Virus record (IMG/VR): IMGVR_UViG_2531839531_000008
DNA from: a virus
Lineage: Duplodnaviria > Heunggongvirae > Uroviricota > Caudoviricetes
DNA: 55,149 nucleotides
Direction: 5' to 3' (one strand)
Part shown: positions 4,435 through 35,158 of the stretch, one piece after another
Position numbering within the stretch: the first letter of the stretch is position 1
How the letters are laid out: each line of letters starts with the position of its first letter
Made by a program: the position numbers and the translations under genes
Notes under the pieces: generated by a model
Told to the model about the DNA's origin: nothing
What the model saw: only the letters and a program-made list of their open reading frames with translations
Databases searched by the model: none

Positions 4435-4514
4435 GTTGTTTTAACCTCATTACAGATTTAAGGGTGAACAAATCCCTGCCATTGCTGGCATATAAAAATG
4501 AAACCGGATATTAA

Positions 4515-4718: not shown

Positions 4719-4903
4719 TGCCAGTATCCTTTTTGCATCGGGCGTAAACGTGCCAGCATTGAAAGAATGCATATTTTATTTAATAGCTCCCGTTCGTATT
4801 TTCTCTTATTAATGGCATCTTCAGTAAATACAGGGTTACTGATTCTGACACCAATTTCAAAACAACCTTCAGACGTATTGACGTTTGGTAATAACGTTTC
4901 CAT
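4715..4903 (-). CDS. hypothetical small early-left protein (kil/cIII-position)
   Basis: 62 aa from internal Met with GAGGA RBS; preceded by 19-bp inverted repeat arm. Confidence 0.45.
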   Translation of the reverse strand: METLLPNVNTSEGCFEIGVRISNPVFTEDAINKRKYERELLNKICILSMLARLRPMQKGYWQ

Positions 4904-5470
4904 TATCGCGTCCTCAACAATGAATTTTGTGATGCGGTGCCTGGTGCCTCCAGGTGACGTTAACCAGTTAATAATTAACGCCGGATACAGAGAACCCACC
5001 CATAAGAACCAATACGGAAGTCAACTGGTCTTTTTAACTGTTCCGCGTGCGCTGAGCCGCATTCACCGCATCACAAAATTCACTTTAAAAGGGGCGGGTA
5101 TCATGGGAAAAACAAAACGGATACCCGCCAAAAGGTAATCAACATGGGCTGTTGCAGCGGGGTTGTCACTCAGGCGTATGGTCAACCTGACAACCCGGTG
5201 GACATTTGCGAGGAACGGAGAACCCCCGCCATACTTACCGCCGCGCCATTTCGCGGAGTGCCACAACCGGAAGCGCACGGTCGACGAAAATTTAACGACA
5301 GGCTATCTATGAACCAACAACTTCGCCGTGCGCTTTCGCGTTATGCCCTGACTTTTCAGGGAGATATCCTTTCAGTAAACTGTCAGTGCCGGATGCTCAC
5401 CCGTGTCCGGCGCACGCACTCCACCTCACCCGTGGAGAACTCCTTAATTACTAACCCTCAGGAGGATGAA

Positions 5471-20232: not shown

Positions 20233-20727
20233 ATGGATCGAGAGTTAAAAAATCTGACGCTGAATATCAGTCAACTGGCGGCACTGTCAGGTGTACATCG
20301 CCAGACTGCTGCGGCAAGGCTGCAAAATCTACCCGTTGCAGGGGGGCATGAAAGCAACCTCAAGCTTTATCGGGTGGTTGATATTGTGTCGGCATTTCTG
20401 GCATTGCCACCGCCGGTTGCAGAAGGCGAAATGGACGCGCATGAGCGCAAAGCCTGGTATCAGTCTGAACGTGAGCGTCTTAAGTTCGAACAGGAAACGG
20501 CACAACTCATTCCGGCCAGTGATGTCAGACGGGAGTTTGCCATCTGGGCAAAAGCGGTCGTGCAGGTGCTGGAGACATTACCGGATATTCTGGAACGTGA
20601 CTGCGGTCTGCAGCCTGCCGCTGTGAGCCGTGTTCAGTCCATTATTGATGATCTGCGCGATCAGATAGCCCTGCGGGTGACTGAAGCAGGTGCGGATGAT
20701 GAGGAGGAATTACAGCAGGAGGAGTAA
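20233..20727 (+). CDS. terminase small subunit (Nu1/Noh-like)
   Basis: 164 aa, N-terminal wHTH-like, TAATG coupling to terL, immediately downstream of cos. Confidence 0.75.
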   Translation: MDRELKNLTLNISQLAALSGVHRQTAAARLQNLPVAGGHESNLKLYRVVDIVSAFLALPPPVAEGEMDAHERKAWYQSERERLKFEQETAQLIPASDVRREFAIWAKAVVQVLETLPDILERDCGLQPAAVSRVQSIIDDLRDQIALRVTEAGADDEEELQQEE

Positions 20728-21722
20728 TGCTGAATCAGGAAACCGCAAAGGCAGCACGAACCGATTCAGGTTATATCCTTCGCGCACCGAGACGAATGCG
20801 GGTTGCTGATGCCGTTGCTCAGTATATGCGGGTGCCCATGGGGGCAGGGAACTCAGTCCCGTGGGATCCGCTGGTGGCACCGTATGTTATTGAGCCGATG
20901 AACTGCCTGGCCTCGCGTGAATACGACGCAGTGATATTTGTTGGCCCGGCACGAACCGGCAAGACTATCGGCCTGATTGACGGCTGGGTGATTTACAACG
21001 TGATTTGCGATCCTGCTGATATGCTGATCATTCAGATGACGGAGGAAAAAGCCCGCGAACACTCCAAAAAACGACTCGCCAGAACGTTTCGCGTCAGCCC
21101 GGAAGTGGTCAGTCGCCTGAGTCCGAACAAAAATGACAACAACGTTTATGACAGAACATTCCTTGCTGGTAACTACCTGAAAATCGGCTGGCCGTCAGTC
21201 AATATCATGTCCTCATCAGATTATAAATGCGTCGCGCTGACGGATTATGACCGTTTTCCGGAAGATATTGATGGCGAGGGGGATGCTTTCTCTCTTGCCT
21301 CAAAACGTACCACCACATTTATGTCCAGCGGTATGACGCTGGTGGAGAGTTCCCCCGGCAGGGATGTGAAGGATGTGAAATGGCGACGGACTTCACCGCA
21401 TGAGGCTCCACCAACCACGGGGATCCTGTCGCTCTATAACCGTGGTGATCGCCGTCGCTGGTACTGGCCCTGTCCACACTGTGGTGAGTATTTTCAGCCC
21501 TGCGGCGATGTGGTTGCTGGTTTCCGTGATATTGCCGATCCCGTGCTGGCAAGTGAGGCGGCTTATATTCAGTGTCCTTCCTGTTCAGGACGGATTATGC
21601 CTGAACAAAAACGTGAGCTGAACGGACGTGGGGTCTGGTTGCGGGATGGTGAATCCATCAATGCGGATGGCAGTCGTTATGGTGATCCCCGACGCTCACG
21701 TATTGCGTCATTCTGGATGTAG
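20727..21722 (+). pseudogene. terminase large subunit (lambda gpA-like), N-terminal part, interrupted by satellite insertion
   Basis: 331 aa matching gpA N-terminal ATPase region incl. PCPHCGE motif; ends at TAG created at insertion junction. Confidence 0.8.
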
Positions 21723-21883: not shown

Positions 21884-23122
21884 ATGTCGGTAAAGCCATT
21901 AACCGTGACTGAAGTTAAGGGGATGAAACCACGTGAAAGGGACTATGCCGTTTATGATGGGTTCGGTTTATTGCTGAATGTGAGTAAAGCAGGTGGGAAA
22001 GTGTGGCGTTTCCGTTATAGCCATCCGATAACGAAGAAACGGCAGACATACACGATAGGGCGTTTTCCTGAATTCTCACTCGCGGAAGCACGGGAAGTAC
22101 GTGATGAACTTCGGCGAATGATTGCGCGTGGAGTTGATCCAGTGACAGAGAAGAAAAATCGTAAAATTGAGATGGCGCTAAAAAATCTACAGACATTTGA
22201 AGTCGTTGCTAATGCATGGTTCGCTTTTAAAAAAGGATCGGAGTTGAGGAAACCTACGTTGTATAATATCGAATATGAAGTATATAAGTATCTTGTTCCT
22301 TTCTTTGGTAAATACAGCATAGATAAAATTACAGCACCATTAGCAATTAAGACACTGGATGCCGTATCTGATAAAAACGCGCTGCAAAAAAAATTAATAT
22401 CAAGATTAAATGAAATCATGAATTACGCTGTAAATTGTGGCGCATTGAAAATAAATCCATTGCTTAAAATAAAGACAGCATTCACTGGAAAGAAAAATAA
22501 ATTATTAGCCGCGTTACCTATAGAAAGATTACCTGAATTTCTGAGCTGGTGGGATAGTGTGCCTCATAAGTATCAAATAGCTCACAATGCGCTTTTATTC
22601 CAGATATTGACAATGGTCAGGCCAGGTGAGGCGATTAAAGCAGAGTGGCCCGAGATTGATTTTGATTCTGGCTTGTGGATTATCCCCGCGCATAAAATGA
22701 AATGCCATCGTGAACATGTTGTGCCTCTCTCATCACAGGCTATTAGAATCCTAAGAACAATGCAGGAAATAAAAAGAGGGCGTTATATATTTTTTTCCTC
22801 CAGAACAAAAGATGCTCCTATGGGAAAGAATACTATCAATACCCCAATTGCTGCCAGCAAGTTCAAAGGGATTGTAACGTTACACGGTTTTCGTTCGATG
22901 TGGAGTACGCTTTTAAATGAGGAGGGTTTTAACCCTGATGTTATTGAGGCTGCATTAGCACATAAAAGTGGTGATAAAATAAGAGATATTTATAATAGAA
23001 CTACTTATTTAGAACAACGCAAAATTATGATGCAATGGGTAGGAGATTTTTTTGATGAGGCGAGAAAAGGGGTAATTAATAGATCCGGTGGTAAGAAAGG
23101 TTTGAGAATAGTAAATGGTTGA
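21884..23122 (+). CDS. int: P4-type tyrosine integrase (DUF4102 arm domain)
   Basis: 412 aa; N-terminus LT..E..G.KP...DY.V.DG.GL.L.V...G.K.WRFRY typical of P4 Int family; adjacent to left junction. Confidence 0.9.
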   Translation: MSVKPLTVTEVKGMKPRERDYAVYDGFGLLLNVSKAGGKVWRFRYSHPITKKRQTYTIGRFPEFSLAEAREVRDELRRMIARGVDPVTEKKNRKIEMALKNLQTFEVVANAWFAFKKGSELRKPTLYNIEYEVYKYLVPFFGKYSIDKITAPLAIKTLDAVSDKNALQKKLISRLNEIMNYAVNCGALKINPLLKIKTAFTGKKNKLLAALPIERLPEFLSWWDSVPHKYQIAHNALLFQILTMVRPGEAIKAEWPEIDFDSGLWIIPAHKMKCHREHVVPLSSQAIRILRTMQEIKRGRYIFFSSRTKDAPMGKNTINTPIAASKFKGIVTLHGFRSMWSTLLNEEGFNPDVIEAALAHKSGDKIRDIYNRTTYLEQRKIMMQWVGDFFDEARKGVINRSGGKKGLRIVNG

Positions 23123-23134
23123 GGAGTTCAGCAA

Positions 23135-23338
23135 ATGAATACCAATGAAGATATTTTATTTACTAAAGACGTAATGAAAATTTTGCGCTATGGGGCAATG
23201 AGCGCATTCATCAATTTCTGGAAAGATGAAAATAATGGTTTTCCTCAACCGTTCAGAATTGGGCGGCGGCATACCTGGCACCGCAGAGATGTAGAGGCAT
23301 GGTTAGATAAACAACGAGAACAGGCCAATCCCCACTAA
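23135..23338 (+). CDS. alpA: AlpA-family transcriptional regulator
   Basis: 67 aa small HTH protein directly after P4-type int. Confidence 0.65.
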   Translation: MNTNEDILFTKDVMKILRYGAMSAFINFWKDENNGFPQPFRIGRRHTWHRRDVEAWLDKQREQANPH

Positions 23339-23351
23339 TAATATCTTTCAT

Positions 23352-23378
23352 ACCCCGCACGCAATGCGGGGTTTTTTG
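23352..23378 (+). terminator. intrinsic terminator after alpA
   Basis: ccccgca-cgcaa-tgcgggg hairpin followed by TTTTTT. Confidence 0.6.
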
Positions 23379-23396
23379 TATGTGAGGTAAAAAACG

Positions 23397-23978
23397 ATGA
23401 ATAAAAATATTGCCGTGACGGGCAAGGGGTACGCTCGTTCAGTAAAAAAATTCTGCGATATTCGTGATCTTGTCGTTCTGCGCTTTGATGGCGTGGATGT
23501 TCGTGTGGTGTATCTGAACGGCGATCCGTGGTTTGTTGCAAAGGATGTTTGTGAAGCTCTGGAAATAAGCAACTCACGCGATGCTCTAAAAGCTCTGGAT
23601 GTGGATGAGAAGAATACCGTCGCTTTAAGCTACGGTATTCGCGGAAATCCAAATCATAGCGTCGTTTCTGAATCTGGTTTTTACAAGCTGATCGCCAGAA
23701 GTCGCAAAGCTGTTACTCCTGGCACGTTCGCCCATCGTTTCAGTAACTGGGTATTCAGGAATGTGATACCAGGTATCAGAAAAACGGGGGCTTATGGTAT
23801 CCCGTGGGGTGCATTACAGGATTTTTCCCGCCGTAAAGAGCAATATCAAATAAGTGCCAGCGAGAAGGGGAGGGAGCTACAGGCATGTAAGCGCAAAAAG
23901 CGTGAGCTGGAGGAAGAAGAAAAAAGGCTGATACGTGAATACCAGCCTGAGTTTTACTTTGGTGAGCGTATTCAGTAA
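23397..23978 (+). CDS. BRO-N domain protein (antirepressor-like)
   Basis: 193 aa; N-terminal BRO-N-like segment, lysine/glutamate-rich C-terminus. Confidence 0.6.
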   Translation: MNKNIAVTGKGYARSVKKFCDIRDLVVLRFDGVDVRVVYLNGDPWFVAKDVCEALEISNSRDALKALDVDEKNTVALSYGIRGNPNHSVVSESGFYKLIARSRKAVTPGTFAHRFSNWVFRNVIPGIRKTGAYGIPWGALQDFSRRKEQYQISASEKGRELQACKRKKRELEEEEKRLIREYQPEFYFGERIQ

Positions 23979-24370
23979 CCACACGCGGTGTTGATTATAC
24001 GGTACATCGTGTTGACCGGGAAGCTACCCACCAGCAAGGCAAAATCTTCTGCTAAAAAATGACATATGACCAGTCGTCCGGAAAGCATGAAATTTTACAA
24101 AAATGGAAAATGAAGATTTTTATTGTGCTGGTGGGTAAAAACAAAAAGCGCCCCGTTGCCGGAGCGCCCTTGCGAACAATTAACCTACTGCGCAAAAAAT
24201 GAATCAGTGCAGTGGGATTATATCAACCGTGTAGCGAAGCGCCACAATTGCCGGATAACAGGCAAAACAAAGGCCACCCGCTACGGTGGCCCCTCGACAC
24301 AAGCTACACGTTATCCCCAACGCATGAGCATTACCAACAATGCCACATTTGCGGCTGGTGGGCAATGTGA

Positions 24371-24559
24371 TCAGTCAGATTTGGTTCGTTCCAAGGTTTG
24401 CAACGAGAGTTTTTTCCTGCGCTCTTTAAGGAATTTCTCAAGAGCAAACGAACAAGGTGCGAATCTTTCTGATTCATGCTCTATCTTTCTGCGCCGTCTT
24501 TTCCGTGCCGGTGATAATGTTTTGGTCAATTCTTTATCGGTCATTGTGTTGTCCTGCAT
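24371..24559 (-). CDS. hypothetical small basic protein
   Basis: 62-aa ORF; terminator-like hairpin plus T-run on minus strand near 24270-24300. Confidence 0.35.
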   Translation of the reverse strand: MQDNTMTDKELTKTLSPARKRRRRKIEHESERFAPCSFALEKFLKERRKKLSLQTLERTKSD

Positions 24560-24601
24560 AGCAATGCGCCGTAATACCTTACACCACGGCGCTGGTGATG
24601 G

Positions 24602-24907
24602 TTATTCCTGCTCTTTGGCCTTGCGACGCTGGAGTTCTTCACGCGCGACGGTGATGAGTTGCCCGATCTCCTCGGCTGCTTTGACTCCGATTTTTTCCAC
24701 CTGCGCCAGTGCATCGAGCGAAGAAACCAGGGGATTTTCTCCGCTTCCTTCTGCCTGGCGGCGGGCGATCTCACCGCGAACGGCTGTAATCACGAAAGCG
24801 GCTATTGTTTCCCCTTCCGTTTTCGAATTTTCCATTTCCTCGATTACATCATGGGGGAAGCGGATATTTTTCATTTGCGATCTGCTGTTGATATTTCCTG
24901 TTGCCAT
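24602..24907 (-). CDS. hypothetical protein, candidate satellite regulator
   Basis: 101 aa; divergent from rightward operon; intergenic region 24908-25103 holds GTGTGTA/TGTACA repeat motifs. Confidence 0.45.
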   Translation of the reverse strand: MATGNINSRSQMKNIRFPHDVIEEMENSKTEGETIAAFVITAVRGEIARRQAEGSGENPLVSSLDALAQVEKIGVKAAEEIGQLITVAREELQRRKAKEQE

Positions 24908-25103
24908 CAGAATGTCCGGTTATTTTGAGGTGTGCATACATTACATCAAAAGGTGTGTAAATAAAACACTTGACACTGTAGCGCACTTAAATTTAATCTG
25001 TACACACACCAATGATTGTGGTGTATGTACAGCAAAGCCCCGCAGTGCTGGAACACATGCAGGGCTTCTAACCACCAACGATAGCGAAAGTATCGAGGTA
25101 GCT

Positions 25104-25310
25104 ATGAGAAATTATACCAGACACCCGCAAGGGCGGGACTCGTACAACCTGAATAAATACATCTGGCGTTTTATCGCCCTGAGCACGGCACAACCGCGCG
25201 TGATTACCATTGAGGCCACCAGCGAACAGGAAGCGCGTCAGCAATCTCCTGATGGCTGCGTGATGGTATTCGCTGCCCGTATTCGCCAGGGGGAAACCTA
25301 TGCACAATAA
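25104..25310 (+). CDS. hypothetical small protein
   Basis: 68 aa with GAGG RBS; first gene of rightward operon. Confidence 0.4.
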   Translation: MRNYTRHPQGRDSYNLNKYIWRFIALSTAQPRVITIEATSEQEARQQSPDGCVMVFAARIRQGETYAQ

Positions 25311-25536
25311 AACCACACCGGACGCAGCCGCCGAAGCCATCAAAACGCTGATGCACGCGCTGATTGATATTTCTGTTATCGCAGACAAGGCGCATAAGCA
25401 CGCCACCAGCGAAACAGAATATGCCGGGGCTTTCGTTCCTCACTCACTGGCTCTTATGCAATTTAGTGCTGATATGGCGCTGAATGAGGCAGGCAAAATT
25501 CTTACCGCAGATATTCAGGGGGTGCACCATGCATGA
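25300..25536 (+). CDS. hypothetical small protein
   Basis: 78-aa ORF overlapping neighbours by a few nt. Confidence 0.35.
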   Translation: MHNKTTPDAAAEAIKTLMHALIDISVIADKAHKHATSETEYAGAFVPHSLALMQFSADMALNEAGKILTADIQGVHHA

Positions 25537-25756
25537 TGACTGTTATCTTAAATCAATGAGCCATGCAGAAAACGCACTGACTAACAGTGAATGTTTGAGG
25601 CAAATATTTCTTATCTGGCTTGATGGTTTAAGTGATGCGCCGGAAGATGAGCGTGAATCTAATCTTGCTGGTGCGTTTATTTCATTACTCGATACGGTAA
25701 TCGTCGAATTAAATAAAGCGATCGAAATTCACGATAAAAAAATAAACGCGGAATAA
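25529..25756 (+). CDS. hypothetical small protein
   Basis: 75 aa from internal ATG. Confidence 0.35.
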   Translation: MHDDCYLKSMSHAENALTNSECLRQIFLIWLDGLSDAPEDERESNLAGAFISLLDTVIVELNKAIEIHDKKINAE

Positions 25757-25761
25757 AAACC

Positions 25762-26049
25762 ATGAAAAATAAAAATTCTGGCTTTACTGCCAGCGGCCCC
25801 GCTCGGCCTGAAATCCGCCCCGGCGATATTTTCCGGGATAACTATGGCGGCACGGTAACGATAAAAGGCGTGGCAGAACGGCGCATCACTTACCGCCGTG
25901 ATGGCTACGAATATGACTGCGTGATGCCTGTTTATCAGTTCCGGCGTGATTTCACGCTGGTGGGCCATCGTAAAGCCGTAAATCAGAAACGTGCAGCAAG
26001 TCATATCCGCAAAATTCGTGAAATGCTGGTCGCAGGGGGTAAAAAATGA
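25762..26049 (+). CDS. hypothetical small protein
   Basis: 95-aa ORF, ATGA-coupled to primase gene. Confidence 0.4.
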   Translation: MKNKNSGFTASGPARPEIRPGDIFRDNYGGTVTIKGVAERRITYRRDGYEYDCVMPVYQFRRDFTLVGHRKAVNQKRAASHIRKIREMLVAGGKK

Positions 26050-27860
26050 AACTGGCACCGAACGTAAAACAGCAGTCACGCGGCATAAAACACAAAGAAA
26101 CAGAAGTCATTATTTTTGCGGGTAGTGATGCCTGGTCACACGCAAAACAATGGCAGGAACATGACGCGCGTATGGCCGGAGATAATGAGCCTCCTGTGTG
26201 GCTTGGGGAGCAGCAGTTATCTGAACTGGATAAGCTGCAAATTGTGCCGGAAGGCAGAAAATCCGTGCGCATATTCAGGGCCGGATATCTTGCGCCAGTA
26301 ATGATAAAGGCGATTGGTCAGAAGCTGGCGGCGGCAGGCGTACAGGATGCAAATTTTTATCCTGAGGGTATGCACGGCCAGGAGGTGCAGAACTGGCGCG
26401 AATATCTGGCCCGTGAGCGCCAGAATCTTTCTGATGGTCTGGTGATTCAGCTTCCTGTTAAGAAAAAAACAGAAGACAGCGCCGCACCACTGGCGCTTAA
26501 CCAGATGGGAGCAAGCCAGCGCGGCGAAGTTCTCCTGGCACATTATGGCGGTGAACTGGCGATTCATGCCGACTCTGACACTGTTCACCATTACAACGGC
26601 GTTGTATGGGAGCCGATTCAGGATAAAGAGTTACAGCGTGCTATGGCGCAGATTTTCATTGATGCGGAGATCAGCTATTCGCAGAACGCCATTAAATCGG
26701 CGGTCGATACCATGAAGTTAAGTTTGCCTGTAATGGGGAATACAGCCCGTAACCTGATTGGATTCAGTAACGGGGTATTTGATACCAGAACAGGTAATTT
26801 TCGGGAGCATAACAAAAACGACTGGTTGTTAATTGCCAGTGAATTACCTTTCAGCCCACCAGCAGAGGGGGAAACGCTGGCAACACATGCGCCGAATTTC
26901 TGGAAGTGGTTACGCCGCTCGGTGGCAGAGAATGACCGCAAGACGGATCGCGTGCTGGCTGCATTATTCATGGTGCTGGCGAACCGGTACGACTGGCAGT
27001 TATTCATTGAGGTAACAGGTCCAGGGGGAAGTGGTAAAAGCGTGATGGCGGAGATTTGCACTATGCTGGCGGGTAAGGCCAACACAGTATCGGCAAGCAT
27101 GAAGGCGCTGGAAGATGCAAGGGAACGCGCGTTAGTGGTTGGCTTTTCGCTGATTATCATGCCGGATATGACCCGCTACGCTGGTGATGGCGCAGGAATT
27201 AAGGCCATTACAGGCGGTGACAAGGTGGCAATCGACCCGAAGCATAAAGCCCCCTACTCAACACGCATTCAGGCGGTCGTGCTGGCGGTGAACAATAACG
27301 CCATGTCATTCAGTGACCGCAGCGGGGGGATCTCACGTCGTCGGGTGATATTCAATTTTTCGGAGGTTGTACCGGAGAACGAGCGCGACCCCATGCTGGC
27401 AGAAAAAATAGAAGGAGAGCTGGCGGTTGTGATTCGCCATCTGCTTACTCGTTTTTCTGACCAGGACGAAGCTAAACGCCTGCTGTATGAGCAGCGGAAA
27501 TCAGAAGAAGCTCTGGTGATAAAACGCGAGGGCGATTCGCTGGTGGACTTCTGTGGCTATCTCATGTCGTCGGTAATGTGTGATGGTCTGTTAGTGGGTA
27601 ATGCCGAAATTATTCCGTTCAGTCCGCGCAGGTATCTTTATCACGCCTATCTGGCATATATGAGGGCACACGGATTCGGTAAACCTGTAACACTGACGCG
27701 CTTCGGTAAAGATATGCCGGGGGCAATGGCGGAATATGGCAGGGAGTATATAAAACGGAAAACGAAGCACGGTTTGCGTTCAAATGTGACACTGACAGAG
27801 GATTCAGAAGACTGGATGCCATCATGTGCATCGGTCACAAATGACGACAGCAAAAATTAA
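26046..27860 (+). CDS. satellite replication protein: primase/SF3-helicase family (P4 alpha C-terminal-like)
   Basis: 604 aa; Walker A GPGGSGKS; followed by iteron array. Confidence 0.8.
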   Translation: MKLAPNVKQQSRGIKHKETEVIIFAGSDAWSHAKQWQEHDARMAGDNEPPVWLGEQQLSELDKLQIVPEGRKSVRIFRAGYLAPVMIKAIGQKLAAAGVQDANFYPEGMHGQEVQNWREYLARERQNLSDGLVIQLPVKKKTEDSAAPLALNQMGASQRGEVLLAHYGGELAIHADSDTVHHYNGVVWEPIQDKELQRAMAQIFIDAEISYSQNAIKSAVDTMKLSLPVMGNTARNLIGFSNGVFDTRTGNFREHNKNDWLLIASELPFSPPAEGETLATHAPNFWKWLRRSVAENDRKTDRVLAALFMVLANRYDWQLFIEVTGPGGSGKSVMAEICTMLAGKANTVSASMKALEDARERALVVGFSLIIMPDMTRYAGDGAGIKAITGGDKVAIDPKHKAPYSTRIQAVVLAVNNNAMSFSDRSGGISRRRVIFNFSEVVPENERDPMLAEKIEGELAVVIRHLLTRFSDQDEAKRLLYEQRKSEEALVIKREGDSLVDFCGYLMSSVMCDGLLVGNAEIIPFSPRRYLYHAYLAYMRAHGFGKPVTLTRFGKDMPGAMAEYGREYIKRKTKHGLRSNVTLTEDSEDWMPSCASVTNDDSKN

Positions 27861-28147: not shown

Positions 28148-28393
28148 GTGACAACGAAGCACGCAAAAAAACCACAATCTCACGCCCTTGATTTGACAGA
28201 ACACTGGCTGAGGGTGGCGATAAAAATCATCGACCGCAACGCGGGAGAAGGGTACGCAAAAGCACATCCCGAACTGGTAAGCGCACTCATGACCACGGCA
28301 GCGGCAAACTTTGCCACGCTGACAGAACGGGAGATTGCCGAAGCGGAACAGGTGACAACCATCAACGTTAAAACCGGAGAGCAGACAGCATGA
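28148..28393 (+). CDS. hypothetical protein
   Basis: 81 aa, GTG start with GAGG RBS. Confidence 0.4.
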   Translation: MTTKHAKKPQSHALDLTEHWLRVAIKIIDRNAGEGYAKAHPELVSALMTTAAANFATLTEREIAEAEQVTTINVKTGEQTA

Positions 28394-28812
28394 CAGCACA
28401 GATAGCAGCTTACGGGCGGCTGGTGGCTGACCCGCAGTTAAAGACCACCAGCAAAGGGACACAAATGGCGATGGCGAGTATGGCGGTTCCCCTGCCGTGC
28501 AGCCAGGCCGATGACGGAACGGCGACGATGTGGTTATCCGTCCTGGCGTTTGGCAGACAGGCCGATGCACTGGCAAAGCACCACAAAGGCGAACTGGTGA
28601 GCGTGGCGGGTAACATGCAGGTAAGCCAGTGGACAGGCCAGAACGGCGAAACGCGGCAGGGCTGGCAGGTTATCGCAGACAGCGTAATCAGTGCGCGAAC
28701 GGCGCGACCGGGCGGCAAAAAAGGCCAGCAGGGCCAGGCTACTGACGCGCTGAACAGAGCAAAACAACTGGCGGGGAATGATGATCCGTACGGGGATAAC
28801 ATACCGTTTTAA
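28390..28812 (+). CDS. SSB-like single-stranded DNA-binding protein
   Basis: 140 aa; Gly/Gln-rich linker and acidic tail ending DNIPF, cf. E. coli SSB tail DDDIPF. Confidence 0.55.
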   Translation: MTAQIAAYGRLVADPQLKTTSKGTQMAMASMAVPLPCSQADDGTATMWLSVLAFGRQADALAKHHKGELVSVAGNMQVSQWTGQNGETRQGWQVIADSVISARTARPGGKKGQQGQATDALNRAKQLAGNDDPYGDNIPF

Positions 28813-29410: not shown

Positions 29411-31327
29411 ATGAATCGCTGGTACACCATTAAAGCGGCGGATGTTCGCGGGACGGCGGAGATATCCATCTATGAGGAAATTGGTGGCTTTGGTATTACC
29501 GCGAAGCAGTTCACGGAAGATCTGAAAGTCCTTGGCGATGTTTCACATATCAATCTGAGGATCCATTCACCAGGTGGCGACGTGTTTGAAGGTATCGCCA
29601 TCTATAACCTGCTACGGAATCATCCGGCAGACATTACGGTTTATATAGATGGCGTGGCGGCTTCAATGGCTTCGGTCGTTGCAATGGCTGGCGATCGCGT
29701 TGTTATGCCGGAGAACGCCATGATGATGATCCATAAGCCGTGGGGTATCTCTGGCGGAAATGCTGGCGATATGCGTGATTATGCTGATTTGCTGGATAAG
29801 GTGGAAACCGTGTTAATCCCTGCTTATGCCAGAAAAACGGGCAAATCAGCACAGGAAATTGCCACCATGCTGGAAGATGAAACCTGGATGGACGGGAAAG
29901 AATGCCTTAAGCACGGTTTTGCTGATGAATTGTTGCCATCTGTCAGAGCAATGGCGCGAATTGAATCGAAACGTACAGGAGATTTTTTACATATGCCGGA
30001 AACCATTAAGGGAATGATTACCCCGCCGAAATCACAGGCAAAAAACACCATTACAGGCGACCAGGAGCGCATTAACGGCATTAAAGAAATTTTTAGCGTG
30101 TTCGGCAACCAGTACGACGGGATCAAAATGTCGTGCCTTGAAGATGCGTCCTGTACGCTGGAAATGGCCCGTGAACGCCTGCTTAAAGAAATGGGTAAGA
30201 ACCACACACCAACCAATAAAAATATTCCGTCTCATATCTATGCCGGAAACGGGAACATAACAGGCGATGCGATTCGCCAAGGGCTTTATTCCCGTCTTGG
30301 GTATGAGCGTCCTGAGCGGGGAAATCCTTACGCGATGATGAGCCTTTTTGAAATGGCCCAGGCATCACTAACTGATCGTGGTATCAGTGTTGGCGGTTTT
30401 TTAAATCGCTCGCAGGTCGTTAATGCAGCTTTCACACACAGCAGCAGCGATTTTTCTCATATTCTGGCTGGCGGTGCTGAAAAATCAGTGCTGAAAGGCT
30501 GGCAGGACAGCGGCGAAACGTTCCAGAAATGGACGCGTACCGGTTCGCTTTCAAACTTTCATGAAGCAAAACGCGTTGGCCTGAATGGCTTTTCAAAACT
30601 AGATAAAGTACCGGAAGGTGCGGAATATAAATACATCACCACCAGCGATAAAGGTGTACCTATTGCGCTGGCCACGTACGGGAATATTTTTTCCGTTACC
30701 CGTCAGGCCATTATCAACGATGACCTGACCCAGTTAACTACAATCCCCATGGCGATGGGACGCGCAGCCGCCAGAACAGTTGGCAATCTGGTTTATCTCC
30801 TGTTAACCAGCAATGGCAAGTTTACGGATGGTAAAGCGTTATTCCATGCCGATCATAAAAATCTTATTGCGAAGGATATGGACATGGTGGGGCTTGATGA
30901 AGCCCGTAAGCTGATGCGCCTCCAGGAAGACGCTAACGGCGATTCCCTGAATATTACCCCTGCTTTTGTTCTGGTCCCTGCCGCGCTGGAGTCTGCCGCA
31001 CATCGCGCCATTCTGTCATCGTCATCACTCTTTCCGGTTGGTAATGAGAGCACTCTCAATCAGAACCCGGGCATCATTAACGTGGTGAAAGATATGGCAG
31101 AAGTAATTGTTGAGCCACGTCTTGATAAGGCCAATAGCAAGGAATGGTATGTAGCCGCAGCTAAGGGGATGGACACGATAGAGGTCGCTTATCTTGACGG
31201 TATTGATACGCCATATCTTGAGGAGCAGGAGGGCTTTACTGTTGATGGTGTCGCATGGAAGGTGCGCATTGATGCAGGTGTCGCGGCCCTCGACTATCGC
31301 GGATTACTGAAATCGAGTGGAGCATGA
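29411..31327 (+). CDS. satellite prohead protease (ClpP/S49-like) fused to major capsid protein
   Basis: 638 aa; N-terminal protease region HSPGGDVFEG...AASMASV; C-terminal HK97-fold capsid-like region; paralog of prophage gene 35159-37117. Confidence 0.75.
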   Translation: MNRWYTIKAADVRGTAEISIYEEIGGFGITAKQFTEDLKVLGDVSHINLRIHSPGGDVFEGIAIYNLLRNHPADITVYIDGVAASMASVVAMAGDRVVMPENAMMMIHKPWGISGGNAGDMRDYADLLDKVETVLIPAYARKTGKSAQEIATMLEDETWMDGKECLKHGFADELLPSVRAMARIESKRTGDFLHMPETIKGMITPPKSQAKNTITGDQERINGIKEIFSVFGNQYDGIKMSCLEDASCTLEMARERLLKEMGKNHTPTNKNIPSHIYAGNGNITGDAIRQGLYSRLGYERPERGNPYAMMSLFEMAQASLTDRGISVGGFLNRSQVVNAAFTHSSSDFSHILAGGAEKSVLKGWQDSGETFQKWTRTGSLSNFHEAKRVGLNGFSKLDKVPEGAEYKYITTSDKGVPIALATYGNIFSVTRQAIINDDLTQLTTIPMAMGRAAARTVGNLVYLLLTSNGKFTDGKALFHADHKNLIAKDMDMVGLDEARKLMRLQEDANGDSLNITPAFVLVPAALESAAHRAILSSSSLFPVGNESTLNQNPGIINVVKDMAEVIVEPRLDKANSKEWYVAAAKGMDTIEVAYLDGIDTPYLEEQEGFTVDGVAWKVRIDAGVAALDYRGLLKSSGA

Positions 31328-31433: not shown

Positions 31434-31583
31434 TCATCATCATCTTTTCAATGCATTGAATTTAAACGAATTTTATTTTTAGTATGTTAATTTTGCGTGT
31501 TTTTTGGTCAACATATAACGCACTTTATAACGCTTTTTGAAAAGGTGTTCGCAAGATGCATGTTTAAAACGTCAGGAGGGGAT

Positions 31584-32069
31584 ATGGATCGTGAGTTGAA
31601 AAATCTGATGCTGAACATTAACCAACTGGCGGCAATAGCAGGTATATGTCGTCAGACTGCGGCGGCAAGGCTGAAAAACATCCAGCCAGCCGGAGGACAT
31701 GACAAGCTGAAACTCTATCGGGTGACTGACATTCTGACCTGTTTTCTTGATCTTCCCGTTCCGGCATCACTGGAAGAAATGGAGCCACATGACCGCAAGG
31801 CTTGGTATCAGTCTGAACGTGAGCGCCTCAAGTTCGAACAGGAAACGGCGCAACTCATACCCGCCGATGATGTGCGAAAAGAGATGGCTATATGGGGGGA
31901 AATCGTAAGCGAGGAACTGGCAAAACTCCCCAATATTCTGGCACGTGATGCAGGGCTTAAACCGATGGCAGTAAACAGAGTGCAGTCAATTATTGACGAT
32001 TTGTGTAATCAGATTATCAGCCGGATGGTAAAAAATGACGCAGTGAATGAGGATGTAAAACAGGCATGA
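31584..32069 (+). CDS. satellite terminase small subunit homolog
   Basis: 161 aa, roughly 60 percent identical by eye to prophage TerS; AGGAGG RBS; preceded by cos copy. Confidence 0.7.
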   Translation: MDRELKNLMLNINQLAAIAGICRQTAAARLKNIQPAGGHDKLKLYRVTDILTCFLDLPVPASLEEMEPHDRKAWYQSERERLKFEQETAQLIPADDVRKEMAIWGEIVSEELAKLPNILARDAGLKPMAVNRVQSIIDDLCNQIISRMVKNDAVNEDVKQA

Positions 32070-32311
32070 TAATGACCGACGCCGTGATCCGCCGTGCCAC
32101 CGGAATCAGACTACCAGAAGGTAAACAGAAGGCCACGCAGTCGGGCAGCGTCATCGTGTTAATGCATGGCGGCGTATTCAGCTTTTAATTAATATTGCTG
32201 CCTTTTTCTTTTTTTTATCGCTTAGGCAGGTACTAAATCTTGGACTATGTGAATGGGGTTACAACTAAATAGTACCTTATAATCATTTGGTTACCTTTTA
32301 TTTACTTCTTC

Positions 32312-32324
32312 CTGGATGGAGGGT
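32312..32324. repeat. right direct repeat / att core of inserted satellite (CTGGATGGAGGGT)
   Basis: matches 21713-21725 with one mismatch; lies at resumption of terL reading frame. Confidence 0.6.
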
Positions 32325-33428
32325 CCGGCAGCTGCTTACCAGACACTCTCGCAACTCGTTTACAAACTGCTTACTGCAGAACAGGAATACGAGACAACCG
32401 GAAGTGAAGAAACACTCAGGGCGGTTATCAATACCGACTGGGGATTACCTTATCTTCCCCGCGCCAGCATGGAGCAACGAAAAAGTGAACTGCTTGAGCA
32501 GCGGGCAGAGCCAGTTCTTTCCCGCAGTGTGCCGGATGGCGTTAATTTCCTTGTGGCGACAGTGGATGTGCAGGCGGGACGTCATCGCCGTTTTGTGGTT
32601 CAGGTAACGGGCTATGGCAGCCGTGGCGAACGCTGGATTATTGATCGTTACAACATCACGCAGTCATTGCGCGGTGACAGCGACGGGGAGAGCCAGCGAA
32701 TTGATCCGGCCAGCTATCCGGAAGACTGGGATGTCCTGCTGACGGATGTTTTTCATAAAAGCTGGCCGCTGGCCTCCGATCCTTCTCAACAAATGCGACT
32801 GATGGCAATGGCGGTGGACTCCGGCGGTGAAGACGGGGTCACTGATAATGCCTATAAATTCTGGCGTCGTTGCCGTCGTGATGGCCTTGGTAAACGTATT
32901 TACCTGTTTAAGGGCGACAGCATCCGGCGCGCAAAACTGATCACCCGTACATTCCCTGATAACACCGGACGAACGGGCCGACGGGCGCAGGCCGCAGGTG
33001 ATGTGCCGCTCTGGCTTCTTCAGACGGATGCACTGAAAGACCGGGTGAATAACGCGTTATGGCGTGACTCGCCAGGTCCAGGCTATGTGCATTTCCCTGA
33101 CTGGCTGGGGAGCTGGTTTTACGACGAACTGACGTATGAAGAGCGGAGCAGTGACGGGAAATGGAGTAAGCCGGGTCGCGGTGCCAACGAAGCTTTTGAC
33201 CTGATGGTGTATGCCGAGGCTCTGGTCATTCTGCATGGATACGAAAAGATCCGCTGGCCGGATGCACCGGAGTGGGCGAGCCGGGAAACCTGGCTGGAGT
33301 GTGTCCAGGACAGTACTGAACCGTCATCCTCACCGGAACCGGTATCCACGCCTGTTAAAAAACAAAAACGGAAGAAAACAGTAACTGACGATGTTAACCC
33401 CTGGCTGACTTCCGGAGGATGGTTATGA
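32316..33428 (+). pseudogene. terminase large subunit (gpA-like), C-terminal part downstream of satellite insertion
   Basis: 370 aa matching gpA C-terminal nuclease region; joins in frame with 20727-21719. Confidence 0.8.
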
Positions 33429-33637: not shown

Positions 33638-35145
33638 TGGCAATTCTTGATGATGTGATTGGCGTTTTTTCACCAGGATGGAAAGCGGCAAGGCTGCGTT
33701 CCCGTGCGGTGATCCAGGCTTATGAGGCCGTAAAAACGACGCGGACACACAAAGCCCGGCGGGAAAACCGAACTGCCGACCAGTTAAGCCAGTACGGGGC
33801 CGTGTCGTTACGTGAGCAGGCCCGTTACCTTGATAACAACCACGATCTGGTTATTGGTGTATTTGACAAGCTGGAAGAACGGGTGGTGGGGAAAAACGGA
33901 ATTATTGTCGAGCCACATCCGGTATTACGCAATGGAGCCATTGCCCGTGATCTGGCAGCGGAGATTCGCACCCGATGGAGTGAATGGTCTGTCAGTCCGG
34001 AAGTCACCGGGCAGTTTACCCGTCCGATGCTGGAACGTCTGATGCTGCGTACCTGGCTGCGCGATGGTGAGGTGTTTGCCCAGATGGTTTCCGGGCGCAT
34101 AAACAGCCTGACGCCTTCTGCCGGTGTTCATTTCTGGCTGGAGGCGCTCGAGCCGGACTTTATTCCCATGACCAGTGATGAGAGCAACAGGCTGAATCAG
34201 GGCGTGTTTGTTGATGACTGGGGGCGTCCCGAAAAATATCTGGTGTATAAAAGCCGTCCCGTATCCGGACGGCAGATGGAAACCAAAGAAGTGGATGCAG
34301 AGCGAATGCTGCATCTTAAATTTGTTCGCCGTCTGCACCAGATGCGCGGGACGTCTTTGTTGTCCGGTGTGTTGATCCGCCTCAGTGCCCTGAAAGAGTA
34401 TGAAGATTCTGAGCTGACTGCAGCAAGGATCGCCGCTGCTCTGGGGATGTACATCCGCAAAGGCGACGGACAGAGCTATGAACCGGATGGTAATGGCAGC
34501 AAGGATAAGGAACGCGAGCTTACCATTCAGCCAGGCATTATTTACGACGATCTGAAACCCGGCGAAGAAATCGGAATGGTGAAGTCGGATCGCCCCAATC
34601 CTAATCTTGAAACTTTTCGTAATGGTCAGTTGCGTGCAGTGGCGGCTGGCAGTCGTCTGAGTTTTTCCAGTACTGCGCGCAACTATAACGGCACTTACAG
34701 CGCCCAGCGTCAGGAGCTGGTTGAATCCACTGATGGCTACCTGATCCTGCAGGACTGGTTTATTGGTGCCGTCACCCGCCCGATGTACCGTGCCTGGCTG
34801 AAACAGGCTGTGGCATCCGGTGTTATCAGGCTACCCCGCGATCTTGACCGTTCTTCACTGTATACCGCGGTGTATTCCGGACCGGTGATGCCGTGGATTG
34901 ACCCTGTTAAGGAGGCTGAGGCCTGGAAAATCCAGATTCGTGGTGGAGCGGCGACAGAATCAGACTGGGTACGTGCTGGTGGTCGTAATCCGGATGATGT
35001 CAAACGTCGGCGCAAGGCCGAAATTGATGAAAACCGCAAGCTGGATCTGGTATTTGATACCGATCCGGCCAGTGATAAAGGAGGTAGCAGTGCCGCAACG
35101 AAACGACAGGAGCCGCAGCACACCAACAACCAGTCCGAAGAATAA
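33637..35145 (+). CDS. portal protein (lambda gpB-like)
   Basis: 502 aa from ATG overlapping W stop; position after terL/W. Confidence 0.8.
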   Translation: MAILDDVIGVFSPGWKAARLRSRAVIQAYEAVKTTRTHKARRENRTADQLSQYGAVSLREQARYLDNNHDLVIGVFDKLEERVVGKNGIIVEPHPVLRNGAIARDLAAEIRTRWSEWSVSPEVTGQFTRPMLERLMLRTWLRDGEVFAQMVSGRINSLTPSAGVHFWLEALEPDFIPMTSDESNRLNQGVFVDDWGRPEKYLVYKSRPVSGRQMETKEVDAERMLHLKFVRRLHQMRGTSLLSGVLIRLSALKEYEDSELTAARIAAALGMYIRKGDGQSYEPDGNGSKDKERELTIQPGIIYDDLKPGEEIGMVKSDRPNPNLETFRNGQLRAVAAGSRLSFSSTARNYNGTYSAQRQELVESTDGYLILQDWFIGAVTRPMYRAWLKQAVASGVIRLPRDLDRSSLYTAVYSGPVMPWIDPVKEAEAWKIQIRGGAATESDWVRAGGRNPDDVKRRRKAEIDENRKLDLVFDTDPASDKGGSSAATKRQEPQHTNNQSEE

Positions 35146-35158
35146 TTCCTGGTTCAGG

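What the first reader, a model, noticed from the sequence alone, without database searches (positions are those of the whole stretch)
24371..25103. Divergent control region of the satellite with repeated TGTACA/GTGTGTA motifs
The minus-strand genes 24602-24907 and 24371-24559 diverge from the rightward replication operon starting at 25104. The 196-bp intergenic region contains several TGTACA-containing repeats (ggtgtgtaaata, ctgtacacacacc, gtgtatgtacagc) that look like operator sites. This is where the island's master repressor and its helper-sensing switch would be expected.
Basis: inference. Interest (0 to 1): 0.4.

Follow-up and report, generated by a model that had tools for sequence, protein, structure and literature searches.

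The report
Phage satellite repressor–operator control switch
This stretch of a phage-parasitising island (a satellite sitting inside its helper prophage) holds a small DNA-binding protein gene facing the island's replication genes, with several copies of its probable binding site laid over the promoter between them; it looks like an on/off switch that the published descriptions of these islands found here do not mention.

Summary
The island is a Gram-negative PICI embedded in its helper's terL gene.

The 101-aa protein is a YlcI/YnfO-family protein. Its N-terminal domain is probably ribbon-helix-helix.

Across 166 related loci (77 unique intergenic regions), each variant of its predicted DNA-reading strand goes with its own motif:
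- The motif is repeated 3–5 times, about 22 bp apart, around a conserved rightward promoter.
- Foreign motifs never occur.
- Sites persist where spacers have drifted.
- AlpA, the Icd-like gene, the replication protein and the protein's own C-terminal half are all shuffled against motif type.

I conclude that this is an immunity-type repressor–operator module controlling the Icd-like→primase operon. It occupies the slot where satellite P4 keeps its CI-RNA immunity. No binding or repression has been shown.

- a covarying leader hairpin;
- a conserved 62-aa partner gene;
- a + strand frame kept open through the whole region, antisense to the repressor gene, resembling P4's nested eta/kil genes.

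"Master repressor with helper sensing" remains untested. The papers I could search call these islands unidirectionally transcribed and their repressor "unclear".

The parts
24602..24907 (-). Gene for a 101-aa YlcI/YnfO-family protein, the candidate repressor. N-terminal RHH-like domain at about aa 9-55; the variable predicted beta-strand is M-K-N-I-R-F-P (aa 12-18). Long C-terminal helix at aa 59-100.
24371..24559 (-). Gene for a small Arg-rich protein (RKRRRRK...ERFAPCSFALEKFLKE), co-directional with and 42 nt downstream of the YlcI-like gene. The likely true start is the second Met, at 24544, preceded by AGGA.
   Evidence: Conserved at protein level in about 100 of 166 loci of all operator types, with whole-codon indels. 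A 62%-identical homolog follows the short 59-aa YlcI in L174/L175. phrog_21027 E=2e-13, function unknown.
24929..24940 (+). Operator-like site 1, GGTGTGCATACA.
   Evidence: The homologous position (intergenic offset about 21) carries the type-specific motif in five of the six types tabulated.
24952..24963 (+). Operator-like site 2, GGTGTGTAAATA. This is the weakest copy.
   Evidence: family D1. Offset about 44 carries a site in five of the six types tabulated.
24970..24997 (+). Candidate rightward promoter P_R: -35 TTGACA at 24970-24975, 16-nt spacer, -10 TTTAAT at 24992-24997. The operator site that other types place in the spacer is degenerate here (CTGTAGCGCAC).
   Evidence: TTGAC is conserved in most island types; the MTTIRVP type has TTGCAA and the E. 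coli QLNARFP type TTGAAA. The scanner calls the homologous promoter in L004 (TTGACG-17-TAACAT) and L006 (TTGACG-17-TAAAGT). The scanner does NOT call it in the window, because position 2 of the -10 is T.
24998..25032 (.). Operator-like sites 4 and 5, which form the 14-nt inverted repeat CTGTACACACACCA / TGGTGTATGTACAG. They lie immediately after the -10 box, so they cover the expected transcription start.
   Evidence: I2. 0 of 400 shuffles give such an inverted repeat. Both arms change together in the sister subtype (TGTATATACACC / GGTGTATATACA). Retained in the 64%-identical L165.
25035..25067 (+). Conserved hairpin in the leader of the rightward transcript, followed by the near-invariant TCTAACCACC at 25067-25076.
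   Evidence: Of 12 pairs, 7 change on both sides. 26 cells carry double changes (0 of 500 shuffles reach this). Covariation score is 0.225 against 0.046 or less for slid controls. Present also in islands whose divergent gene is a short YlcI or a SWIM zinc-finger protein.
25104..25310 (+). Icd-like (P4 Kil-like) 68-aa gene, first gene of the rightward operon. RBS GAGG at 25095-25098.
   Evidence: NCBIfam NF033153 E=1e-19. The same domain sits at the C-terminus of P4's eta/kil frame, E=8e-21.
24114..25310 (+). Open + strand frame of about 398 codons, in frame with the Icd-like gene. It runs through the promoter and operator DNA and antisense to both minus-strand genes, with third codon positions coinciding. 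It is in the same frame as the Bro-N ORF 23397-23978.
   Evidence: This frame is open antisense to the YlcI CDS in 75 of 77 unique loci and across the intergenic region in 65 of 77; the other two frames manage 0-1 of 77 across the intergenic region. The chance of the CDS-antisense part staying open, given the protein, is 0.10-0.26. It is annotated as one long 'Icd-like' CDS in L001, L008, L174 and Pmp7.
24269..24294 (-). Terminator-like hairpin (GGGGCCACC...GGTGGCCTTTGTTTT) 77 nt downstream of the 62-aa gene. Probable end of the leftward operon.
   Evidence: A second minus-strand hairpin plus T-run lies at 24195-24141.
23135..23338 (+). alpA (67 aa), the activator gene known from related islands. 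An intrinsic terminator follows at about 23345-23375, then a Bro-N/antirepressor-like gene at 23397-23978.
   Evidence: AlpA's role comes from PMC6092414 and PMC11773190.

Best explanation
The region is the immunity (repressor-operator) module of a Gram-negative phage-inducible chromosomal island.

Proposed mechanism:
1. The 101-aa YlcI/YnfO-family protein binds as an oligomer, through an N-terminal ribbon-helix-helix domain, to an array of 12-bp sites spaced about two helical turns apart across the 196-bp gap.
2. In this island, sites 4 and 5 sit on the transcription start of a conserved rightward promoter. Occupancy should therefore shut off the Icd-like -> small ORFs -> DUF4222 -> primase operon and keep the island quiescent.
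3. Sites 1 and 2 lie next to the repressor gene's own start, so they probably autoregulate it.
4. The module fills the slot between alpA and the Icd-like gene where satellite P4 keeps its CI-RNA immunity system.
5. Release most likely comes from upstream. AlpA-dependent transcription, or helper late transcription since the island sits in terL, could read through the region on the + strand. It would be translated as the long open frame, would run antisense to the repressor gene, and would bypass the repressed promoter, as P4's late promoter does. Alternatively, the Bro-N antirepressor-like protein next to alpA could act on the repressor.

Shown here: anatomy, family membership, probable fold, conservation, and covariation of sites with the protein's N-terminal type.

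Inferred: binding, repression, autoregulation and the release route.
For: (1) Architecture. The order int-alpA-(bro)-[YlcI-like on the opposite strand]-gap-Icd-like-DUF4222-primase/helicase recurs in E. coli, Klebsiella, Enterobacter, Yersinia and Serratia-like contigs. The gap is about 190-196 bp where it was measured.

(2) Association of protein type and motif, over 166 loci and 77 unique intergenic regions.
- The protein's strand types MKNIRFP, LTTVRVP, SLTARIP, QLNARFP, MTTIRVP and QISIRIP each go with one repeated motif: GGTGTr, TGTrTTTC, TGTAAG, GGTATTC, GTATmTCAC and TGTGATT.
- Each intergenic region has 2.8-4.9 copies of its own motif and 0 copies of foreign motifs, apart from the shared GGTGTG prefix.
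- Sites sit at offsets of about 21, 45, 67, 90 and 112.

(3) Sites persist where spacers drift. L165 (64% protein identity) and L170 (57%) keep the sites. Both arms of the window's inverted repeat change together between subtypes.

(4) Everything else is shuffled against motif type:
- Icd-like N-terminal types and YlcI C-terminal types;
- 20 AlpA alleles;
- replication proteins. L006 has an AAA_25 helicase and L002 a D5 primase, yet they share a motif. L001 has a RepA helicase and the window a D5 primase, yet their control regions are 98.8% identical.

(5) Position of the sites. In most types they bracket the -10 of a conserved promoter that the scanner calls independently in L004 and L006. 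In the window they cover the predicted transcription start.

(7) The slot is swappable. A 59-aa YlcI (RHH domain only) has its own palindromic operator GTGTTyAACAC in three copies around the same promoter. A SWIM zinc-finger gene with a different inverted repeat occupies the slot in L176.

(8) P4 shares the backbone vis/alpA ... Icd-like ... primase. Between vis and kil it has isrK/seqA-like and C4/CI RNAs. None of these RNAs is found in this island or in six relatives.
Against: - There is no binding or expression data.
- The protein's N-terminal codons lie only 30-50 bp from site 1. Linkage alone would therefore give some association. The argument rests on the concerted change of 3-5 internal copies.
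- In this window, the site inside the promoter spacer is degenerate. The -10 lacks the canonical A at position 2, and the scanner does not call the promoter.
- No convincing leftward promoter is predicted.
- Yersinia L008/L009 have a different inverted repeat (CGATTCAC/GTGAATCG) around the rightward -10 than at sites 1 and 2.
- Published work finds that AlpA overexpression alone induces EcCICFT073. It describes these islands as unidirectionally transcribed (PMC6092414), so a repressor may be dispensable or secondary.
- I did not establish whether EcCICFT073 itself carries this module.
Confidence: 0.62

Rival explanations
1. The two minus-strand genes form a type II toxin-antitoxin or addiction module: an RHH antitoxin followed by a small basic toxin. 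On this view the repeats are only its autoregulatory operator and have nothing to do with control of island replication.
Against: The 62-aa partner matches no toxin or defence family. It is absent from about 40% of loci that keep the YlcI gene and the sites. Half of the sites lie on the rightward promoter, not next to the RHH gene. The slot is fixed relative to alpA and the Icd-like gene, and other regulator types can fill it.
Confidence: 0.1
2. The conspicuous inverted repeat 24998-25032 acts as an RNA hairpin at the 5' end of the rightward transcript, for stability, attenuation or processing. It would then not be a protein-binding DNA site, and the other 'copies' would be incidental.
For: The repeat folds as a 14-bp stem with a 7-nt loop. 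Other types have a small hairpin at the same place, CACCTTG...CAAGGTG. A second leader hairpin is a genuine structured element. Concerted changes in the two arms fit an RNA stem as well as a symmetric operator.
Against: With the -10 at 24992-24997, transcription should start inside the left arm, so the full stem would not be transcribed. Sites 1-3 lie upstream of the promoter and share the same motif. In LTTVRVP, MTTIRVP and QISIRIP islands the copies are about 22 bp apart in mixed orientations that cannot all pair.
Confidence: 0.1
3. The repeats are binding sites for another island protein: iterons for the replication initiator, or activator sites for AlpA.
For: Regularly spaced short repeats are typical of iterons. 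AlpA is a known DNA-binding activator of downstream genes in related islands (PMC6092414).
Against: Islands with different replication proteins share a motif, and the window and L001 share the region while differing in replication protein. The 20 AlpA alleles are shuffled against motif type; for example one allele occurs with five motif types. Published PICI origins lie downstream of pri (PMC6092414, PMC10111431).
Confidence: 0.05
4. The real gene here is the long + strand ORF, a Bro-network/Eta-like protein ending in the Icd-like domain. The minus-strand 101-aa and 62-aa ORFs would be shadow ORFs.
For: The + frame is open in 63 of 77 unique loci. PGAP and other callers annotate it as one CDS in several genomes and omit the YlcI-like ORF there. 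The HE-PICI paper treats such ORFs as Bro-network genes (PMC10111431).
Against: The YlcI/YnfO N-domain is an independent curated family with free-standing members. The 101-aa length, an invariant residue set and a confident helical model are conserved from 53% to 98% identity. The long ORF has no domain outside its Icd-like end. It is broken in Klebsiella L006/L007 and in L010, where the YlcI gene is intact. Both strands may in fact be used.
Confidence: 0.08

Closest known systems
Immunity region of satellite phage P4 (PLE/PLL, seqA-cI-seqC, nested eta/kil genes)
   Same: The backbone order is the same: vis/alpA, then the immunity determinant, then an Icd-like (Kil) gene, small ORFs and the primase. 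The Icd-like gene is the 3' end of a longer in-frame ORF that starts upstream of the early promoter, and the promoter lies inside that ORF (P4 description in PMC10111431 section 20).
   Different: P4's immunity factor is a C4-family RNA, with seqA/isrK-like targets on the same strand. Here no such RNA is found. Instead a protein gene lies on the opposite strand with a DNA operator array. Pairwise similarity between the two Icd-like proteins is undetectable by BLAST; only the family profile links them.
Ribbon-helix-helix repressors with multi-site operators (P22 Arc/Mnt, CopG, PutA-RHH, NikR, RHH antitoxins)
   Same: A small N-terminal strand-helix-helix domain. These are the best structural matches. 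Short, partly palindromic sites overlap promoter elements. A divergent-promoter arrangement like that of P22 immI is recalled from my own knowledge.
   Different: Sequence similarity is below family thresholds. There is an extra 40-residue C-terminal helix. There are four to five sites about 22 bp apart spanning some 110 bp. Binding has not been shown.
Stl/Rpr master repressors of Gram-positive PICIs (SaPIs)
   Same: A repressor gene transcribed divergently from the excision/replication operon of a phage satellite, with the control region between them (PMC6092414 introduction).
   Different: The protein family is unrelated. Here int and alpA are not co-transcribed with the repressor. No helper-protein antirepressor is known. 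In Gram-negative PICIs the established trigger is the activator AlpA.
E. coli K-12 YlcI (DLP12) and YnfO (Qin) prophage proteins
   Same: They share the N-terminal domain family NF041551.
   Different: The K-12 proteins are shorter. From my own knowledge they lie near the terminase genes of defective lambdoid prophages. They have no assigned function (they appear only in lists in the papers found). No operator context is known for them.
Helper-embedded PICIs (HE-PICIs), site A:Terminase_1 (Tommasini et al. 2023)
   Same: The island is about 10.6 kb, co-oriented with and inserted in the helper's terminase large-subunit gene. It shows the four zones Integration, Bro, Replication and Late (PMC10111431).
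   Different: That paper describes Bro-zone proteins and immunity RNAs and calls the genes unidirectional. It does not mention the YlcI/YnfO gene, an antisense gene or operators.

Membership tests
YlcI/YnfO family (NCBIfam NF041551) | Match to the N-terminal domain model above its curated cutoff of 30 bits. | tested here: met
   64.2 bits, E=8e-18, aa 9-50 covering model positions 1-42 of 42. Sources name the homologs YlcI/YnfO family protein.
Ribbon-helix-helix (Arc/MetJ/CopG) DNA-binding superfamily | Strand-helix-helix fold of about 45 residues. | tested here: inconclusive
Ribbon-helix-helix (Arc/MetJ/CopG) DNA-binding superfamily | Dimerisation into a two-stranded antiparallel sheet that is inserted into the major groove, with sequence-specific DNA binding. 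| not testable with these tools
   Only single-chain prediction is available. The indirect support is the one-to-one covariation of strand residues 11-17 with the repeated motif.
Gram-negative PICI (EcCICFT073-like) | Gene order int - alpA - ... - primase/rep - ... - capsid/terS homologs, size about 10-15 kb, no tail or lysis genes. | tested here: met
   int 21884-23122, alpA 23135-23338, primase 26046-27860, SSB 28390-28812, protease-capsid 29411-31327, TerS-like 31497-32069. The layout matches annotated E. coli islands.
Gram-negative PICI (EcCICFT073-like) | Induction, replication and packaging that depend on a helper phage; AlpA required. | not testable with these tools
   This is an experimental property (PMC6092414).
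Helper-embedded PICI (HE-PICI) | [quoted passage not shown] | tested here: met
   The N-terminal part of terL is 20727-21722 and the C-terminal part 32316-33428. The junction reads ...SFWM|EGPAAAY... The flanking imperfect repeat is CTGGATG(T/G)AGGGT.
P4/P1-type RNA immunity (C4/CI antisense RNA) | A C4-family RNA and its seqA/a1b1/isrK-like targets upstream of the Icd-like gene. | tested here: not met
   No C4, isrK or c4-a1b1 hit at gathering threshold, or at E of 10 or less in 23000-26100. The same scan finds all three in P4.
P4/P1-type RNA immunity (C4/CI antisense RNA) | The Icd-like/Kil gene is nested in frame at the end of a longer ORF that begins upstream of the early promoter. | tested here: met
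   The frame is open from 24114 to 25310 and contains the ATG at 25104. The phage_ICD_like domain is C-terminal in P4's frame too.
Type II toxin-antitoxin module | A recognisable toxin partner encoded next to the antitoxin. | tested here: not met
   The 62-aa protein has no Pfam, NCBIfam or PADLOC match. It is missing from about 40% of loci.

The most novel reading that the evidence does not exclude
The YlcI/YnfO-like protein is the long-sought repressor of Gram-negative PICIs, and the switch is a both-strand coding device.
- In the quiescent state the repressor, made from the minus strand, sits on an operator array and silences the Icd-like/primase promoter.
- On helper induction, AlpA-dependent or helper-late transcription reads through on the plus strand.
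- That transcript is kept Rho-resistant by translation of a long frame that evolution holds open across the promoter DNA and antisense to the repressor gene.
- It silences the repressor gene by convergent transcription, and expresses the replication operon regardless of the operators.
This would be a protein-based counterpart of P4's RNA immunity, built on the same backbone.
Probability: 0.25. Interest if true: 0.75.

Novelty: new variant of a known kind. Interest (0 to 1): 0.6.

Why it matters
Gram-negative PICIs are common. DNA similar to this control region is found in 1709 of 5426 complete E. coli genomes. These islands move virulence and defence genes.

Their induction is currently explained only by the activator AlpA. 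[quoted passage not shown] A 2026 survey still lists YlcI/YnfO as an accessory 'prophage-associated protein' (PMC13612085).

What a conserved, divergently transcribed DNA-binding protein with type-specific operator arrays on the replication promoter would offer:
- a concrete, directly testable candidate for the missing negative control;
- a possible basis for immunity or incompatibility types among co-resident islands;
- a first functional assignment for the YlcI/YnfO family;
- a route to engineering PICI-based delivery vehicles with orthogonal switches, since at least seven operator specificities are defined here;
- an unusually clean natural case for studying antisense-overlapping reading frames, because the + strand frame stays open through the region.

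Tried and rejected
- P4/P1-type immunity RNAs were sought and not found. This covers Rfam at gathering threshold on the whole window, at E of 10 or less on 23000-26100, and six related loci. The only weak hit, SymR-like on the minus strand at 25031-25103 (E=0.074, 25 bits against a cutoff of 61), was set aside as chance.
- The scan of genome contigs with the single protein gave only one locus. The alignment-based scans of IMG/VR and metagenomes were what worked.
- tblastn of the 101-aa and 68-aa proteins against the phage collection gave one hit each. The 'transcriptional repressor' label under the Pmp7 hit belongs to the opposite-strand long ORF. That label, like the PHROG label for the Icd-like family, probably traces back to the old protein annotation of P4 cI. 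It is not evidence of function.
- The profile search of PDB sequences gave only a marginal helix-hairpin-helix-like match of the C-terminal half to Hef (E=0.013). The AF2 model shows one long helix there, so I do not claim an HhH domain.
- A helper-encoded YlcI/YnfO paralog, as a possible anti-repressor, was sought in all six frames of the window. None was found.
- A terminator after alpA, as a possible AlpA antitermination target, is present in the window but not in L004 or L006. It is not a general feature.
- AlpA, the Icd-like protein, the replication protein and the YlcI C-terminal half were each tested as the specificity partner of the repeats and rejected.
- The defence-system library gave no hit.
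Full report

The coordinates hold. ORFs lie on the minus strand at 24602-24907 (101 aa) and 24371-24559 (62 aa). An ATG at 25104 opens a 68-aa ORF that heads a co-directional gene string ending in a D5/P4-type primase at 26046-27860. The gap 24908-25103 is 196 bp, and the three quoted strings are at 24952, 24998 and 25021.

The repeat finder gives a 14-nt inverted repeat at 24998-25011 / 25019-25032 (93% complementary, 7-nt gap). It also gives a direct repeat AGGTGTG... at 24928 and 24951. Together these make four 12-mers resembling GGTGTGyrTACA, at 24929(+), 24952(+), 24999(-) and 25020(+).

On its own, the window gives only moderate statistics. A three-member family occurs in 1.5-3% of shuffles, while the 13/14 inverted repeat occurs in 0 of 400. 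Window-wide the motif is no more frequent than chance, but three of its four hits lie within 103 bp here.

**2. What is the element?**

The surrounding genes are:
- a tyrosine integrase (21884-23122);
- alpA (23135-23338);
- a Bro-N/antirepressor-like gene (23397-23978);
- the two minus-strand genes;
- an Icd-like gene, small ORFs, DUF4222, primase and SSB;
- a protease-capsid fusion;
- a TerS-like gene.

Annotated E. coli genomes show the same layout in islands of about 10 kb. This is the Gram-negative PICI organisation of Fillol-Salom et al. (PMC6092414).

Here the island interrupts a prophage terminase large-subunit gene. The N-terminal part is 20727-21722 and the C-terminal part 32316-33428. 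The junction reads ...SFWM|EGPAAAY..., and the flanking repeat is CTGGATG(T/G)AGGGT. It is therefore a helper-embedded PICI of the kind described by Tommasini et al. (PMC10111431; mentions sites in A:Terminase_1).

**3. The 101-aa protein**

It matches the YlcI/YnfO N-terminal domain model: NF041551, 64 bits, E=8e-18. Homologs of almost constant length (about 101 aa) occur across Enterobacterales at 53-98% identity.

The AF2 model (pLDDT 81) has an extended N-terminus, helices 19-28 and 35-55, and one long helix 59-100. This is the ribbon-helix-helix order of elements followed by a possible oligomerisation helix.

- Foldseek's best hits are Arc, CdbA, CopG, NikA and MatP, but with E above 1.
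- The RHH antitoxin family PSK_trans_fac matches 20 of 28 homologs below threshold.

I rate the RHH assignment as probable, not proven.

**4. Comparative test of the repeats**

I collected 166 loci encoding relatives, from genomes, IMG/VR and metagenomes. They give 77 unique intergenic regions. Three things are constant:
- a -35 box, TTGAC(A/G) in most types;
- a -10-like TAAAGT, TAACAT, TAAATT or TATAAT about 17 nt further on;
- a hairpin plus TCTAACCAC in the leader.

What varies is a short motif repeated 3-5 times. It varies in step with residues 11-17 of the protein, the predicted DNA-reading strand:

| Strand type | Motif |
|---|---|
| MKNIRFP (the window) | GGTGTr..TACA |
| LTTVRVP | TGTrTTTC |
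| SLTARIP | TGTAAG |
| QLNARFP | GGTATTC |
| MTTIRVP | GTATmTCAC |
| QISIRIP | TGTGATT |

Each intergenic region carries 2.8-4.9 copies of its own motif and none of the others, apart from the shared GGTGTG prefix. Sites sit at offsets near 21, 45, 67, 90 and 112, so they are about 22 bp apart.

The most divergent members of a type keep the sites while the spacers are rewritten: L165 at 64% and L170 at 57% protein identity. Within the window's own type, both arms of the inverted repeat change together: TGTACACACACC/GGTGTATGTACA against TGTATATACACC/GGTGTATATACA.

In most types, two sites bracket the -10 of the rightward promoter, which the scanner calls independently in L004 and L006. In the window's type the spacer site is degenerate, and sites 4 and 5 cover the expected start instead. 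The window's own -10 (TTTAAT) fails the scanner's rule.

**5. Who reads the sites?**

The protein's N-terminal codons and the sites are adjacent, so linkage is a confound. Even so, every other candidate is shuffled against motif type:
- Icd-like N-terminal types and the YlcI C-terminal half;
- 20 AlpA alleles, one of which is found with five motif types;
- the replication protein. L006 has an AAA_25 helicase and L002 a D5 primase, yet they share a motif. L001 has a RepA helicase and the window a D5 primase, yet their control regions are 98.8% identical.

The co-inherited unit is therefore the N-terminal domain plus about 120 bp of sites. That is the signature of an immunity module.

Other regulators can fill the slot:
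- In L174/L175, a 59-aa YlcI that is essentially the RHH domain alone. Its own palindromic operator GTGTTyAACAC occurs three times around the same promoter.
- In L176, a SWIM zinc-finger gene with a different inverted repeat.

**6. Relation to P4**

P4's old 'cI' CDS (8168-8584), which is the eta/kil frame, carries the phage_ICD_like domain at its C-terminus (E=8e-21). The window's 68-aa protein carries the same domain (E=1e-19). Pairwise BLAST sees nothing between them.

Between vis (the alpA homolog) and kil, P4 has isrK/seqA-like elements and the C4-family CI RNA. The window island and six relatives have none of these.

So the backbone is the same and the immunity determinant differs: RNA in P4, and a divergently encoded protein with DNA operators here.

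**7.

(a) *An open + strand frame.* The frame is open from 24114 to 25310. It is in frame with the Icd-like ATG, it runs through the promoter and operator DNA, and it is antisense to both minus-strand genes with third codon positions coinciding.
- Across the 77 unique loci it is open over the YlcI CDS in 75 and over the intergenic region in 65. The other two frames manage 0-1 across the intergenic region.
- Given the protein sequence, the CDS part would stay open only 10-26% of the time under E. coli codon usage.
- Gene callers annotate it as one long 'Icd-like' CDS in several genomes, and there they omit the YlcI gene.
- It has no domain beyond the Icd-like end, and it is broken in Klebsiella L006/L007 and in L010.
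- As summarised in PMC10111431 (section 20), P4's eta is such a frame. It is translated only from the upstream late promoter, and its translation prevents premature termination.

(b) *A structured leader element.* The leader hairpin 25035-25067 has 12 pairs, 7 of which change on both sides. No shuffle out of 500 reaches the observed counts, and slid controls are far lower. Its function is unknown.

(c) *A conserved partner gene.* The 62-aa ORF encodes a conserved Arg-rich protein. It is present in about 60% of loci of all types, including downstream of the short YlcI. It is a facultative partner and not a toxin of any recognised family.

**8. Mechanism proposed**

*Shown:* anatomy, family membership, probable fold, conservation and covariation.

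*Inferred:* the YlcI-like protein oligomerises through its C-terminal helix. It binds the site array on one face of the DNA and occludes the start of the rightward promoter, keeping the Icd-like/primase operon off. Through sites 1 and 2 it limits its own synthesis.

Release is the least certain step. Three options fit the anatomy:
- read-through from PalpA, or from the helper's late operon given the terL location, which would bypass the operators and run antisense to the repressor gene;
- the Bro-N antirepressor-like protein encoded next to alpA;
- a helper protein that binds the conserved C-terminal half.

No helper paralog of YlcI is present in the window.

**9. Comparison with the literature**

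[quoted passage not shown] AlpA is the activator needed for induction.
- PMC11773190 confirms AlpA's role in another island.
- PMC10111431 describes the Bro zone and its immunity RNAs but contains no match for 'YlcI' or 'antisense'.
- A 2026 survey lists YlcI/YnfO in cf-PICIs as a 'prophage-associated protein'.
- Searches for YlcI/YnfO, and for RHH repressors in PICIs, found nothing functional.

The library lacks most subscription papers, so prior description elsewhere cannot be excluded.

**10. Verdict**

Operators and a DNA-binding regulator: yes. Master repressor and helper sensor: untested.
- The kind of system, a small repressor with an operator array at divergent promoters, is ordinary.
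- Three things together make it a new variant worth an experiment: its presence in a satellite family thought to lack one; its replacement of P4's RNA immunity on a shared backbone; and the reading frame kept open on the opposite strand.

Noticed in passing
window 20727-21722 and 32316-33428; junctions near 21709-21721 and 32301-32313: The whole island (about 10.6 kb) is inserted in, and co-oriented with, the helper prophage's terminase large-subunit gene. The junction reads ...SFWM|EGPAAAY..., and the imperfect direct repeat is CTGGATG(T/G)AGGGT. This is a helper-embedded PICI.
   Followed up: partly
window 24114-25310 (+): The + strand frame is kept open through the promoter and operator DNA and antisense to two genes. 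It is conserved in 63 of 77 unique related loci. It is in the same frame as the Bro-N ORF 23397-23978, from which it is separated by stop codons, including those at 23976 and 24111.
   Followed up: partly
window 25035-25076 (+): Leader hairpin with strong covariation, followed by the near-invariant TCTAACCACC. It belongs to no Rfam family. It is kept even in islands with a different divergent regulator.
   Followed up: partly
window 23345-23375 (+): Canonical intrinsic terminator (CCCCGCA-CGCAA-TGCGGGG-TTTTTT) directly after alpA and before the Bro-N gene. It is absent from L004 and L006. It could make downstream expression depend on antitermination, for example by helper late transcription.
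   Followed up: partly
window 29411-31327 vs 34898-37117; 31497-32069 vs 20233-20727: The island carries its own copies of the helper's ClpP-protease/major-capsid fusion and of its small terminase. By eye they are clearly related to the prophage versions flanking it.
   Followed up: no
L173 (P4) 8168-8584; PHROGs 6196/1743; L172 (Pmp7) 4435-5109: The database label 'transcriptional repressor' for Icd-like proteins probably traces back to the obsolete protein annotation of P4 cI. In Pasteurella 'phage' Pmp7, a 10.7-kb record that looks like a satellite, the label sits on the long ORF while the antisense YlcI-like ORF is not annotated.
   Followed up: partly
L176 1859-2215 (-) and 2435-2477: In one E. 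coli island a SWIM zinc-finger protein gene occupies the regulator slot. It comes with a different inverted repeat (GTGACCACCTA / TAGGTGGCCAC) and the same leader hairpin.
   Followed up: no
L008 5844-5914 (-): The Rfam 'int-alpA RNA' (RF02996, 56.9 bits) lies between int and alpA in the Yersinia island. It is not found in the window's island.
   Followed up: no
window 12384-12558, 16883-17129, 53862-54060: Outside the island there are a sok antitoxin RNA (108.7 bits), three tRNA genes in a row within the prophage, and an IS009 RNA element.
   Followed up: no
window 24602-24907 (-), aa 45-86: The C-terminal half gives a marginal match to the helix-hairpin-helix motif of Hef (L..VE.IG.KAAEEI; E=0.013). 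The AF2 model shows a single long helix there instead.
   Followed up: partly
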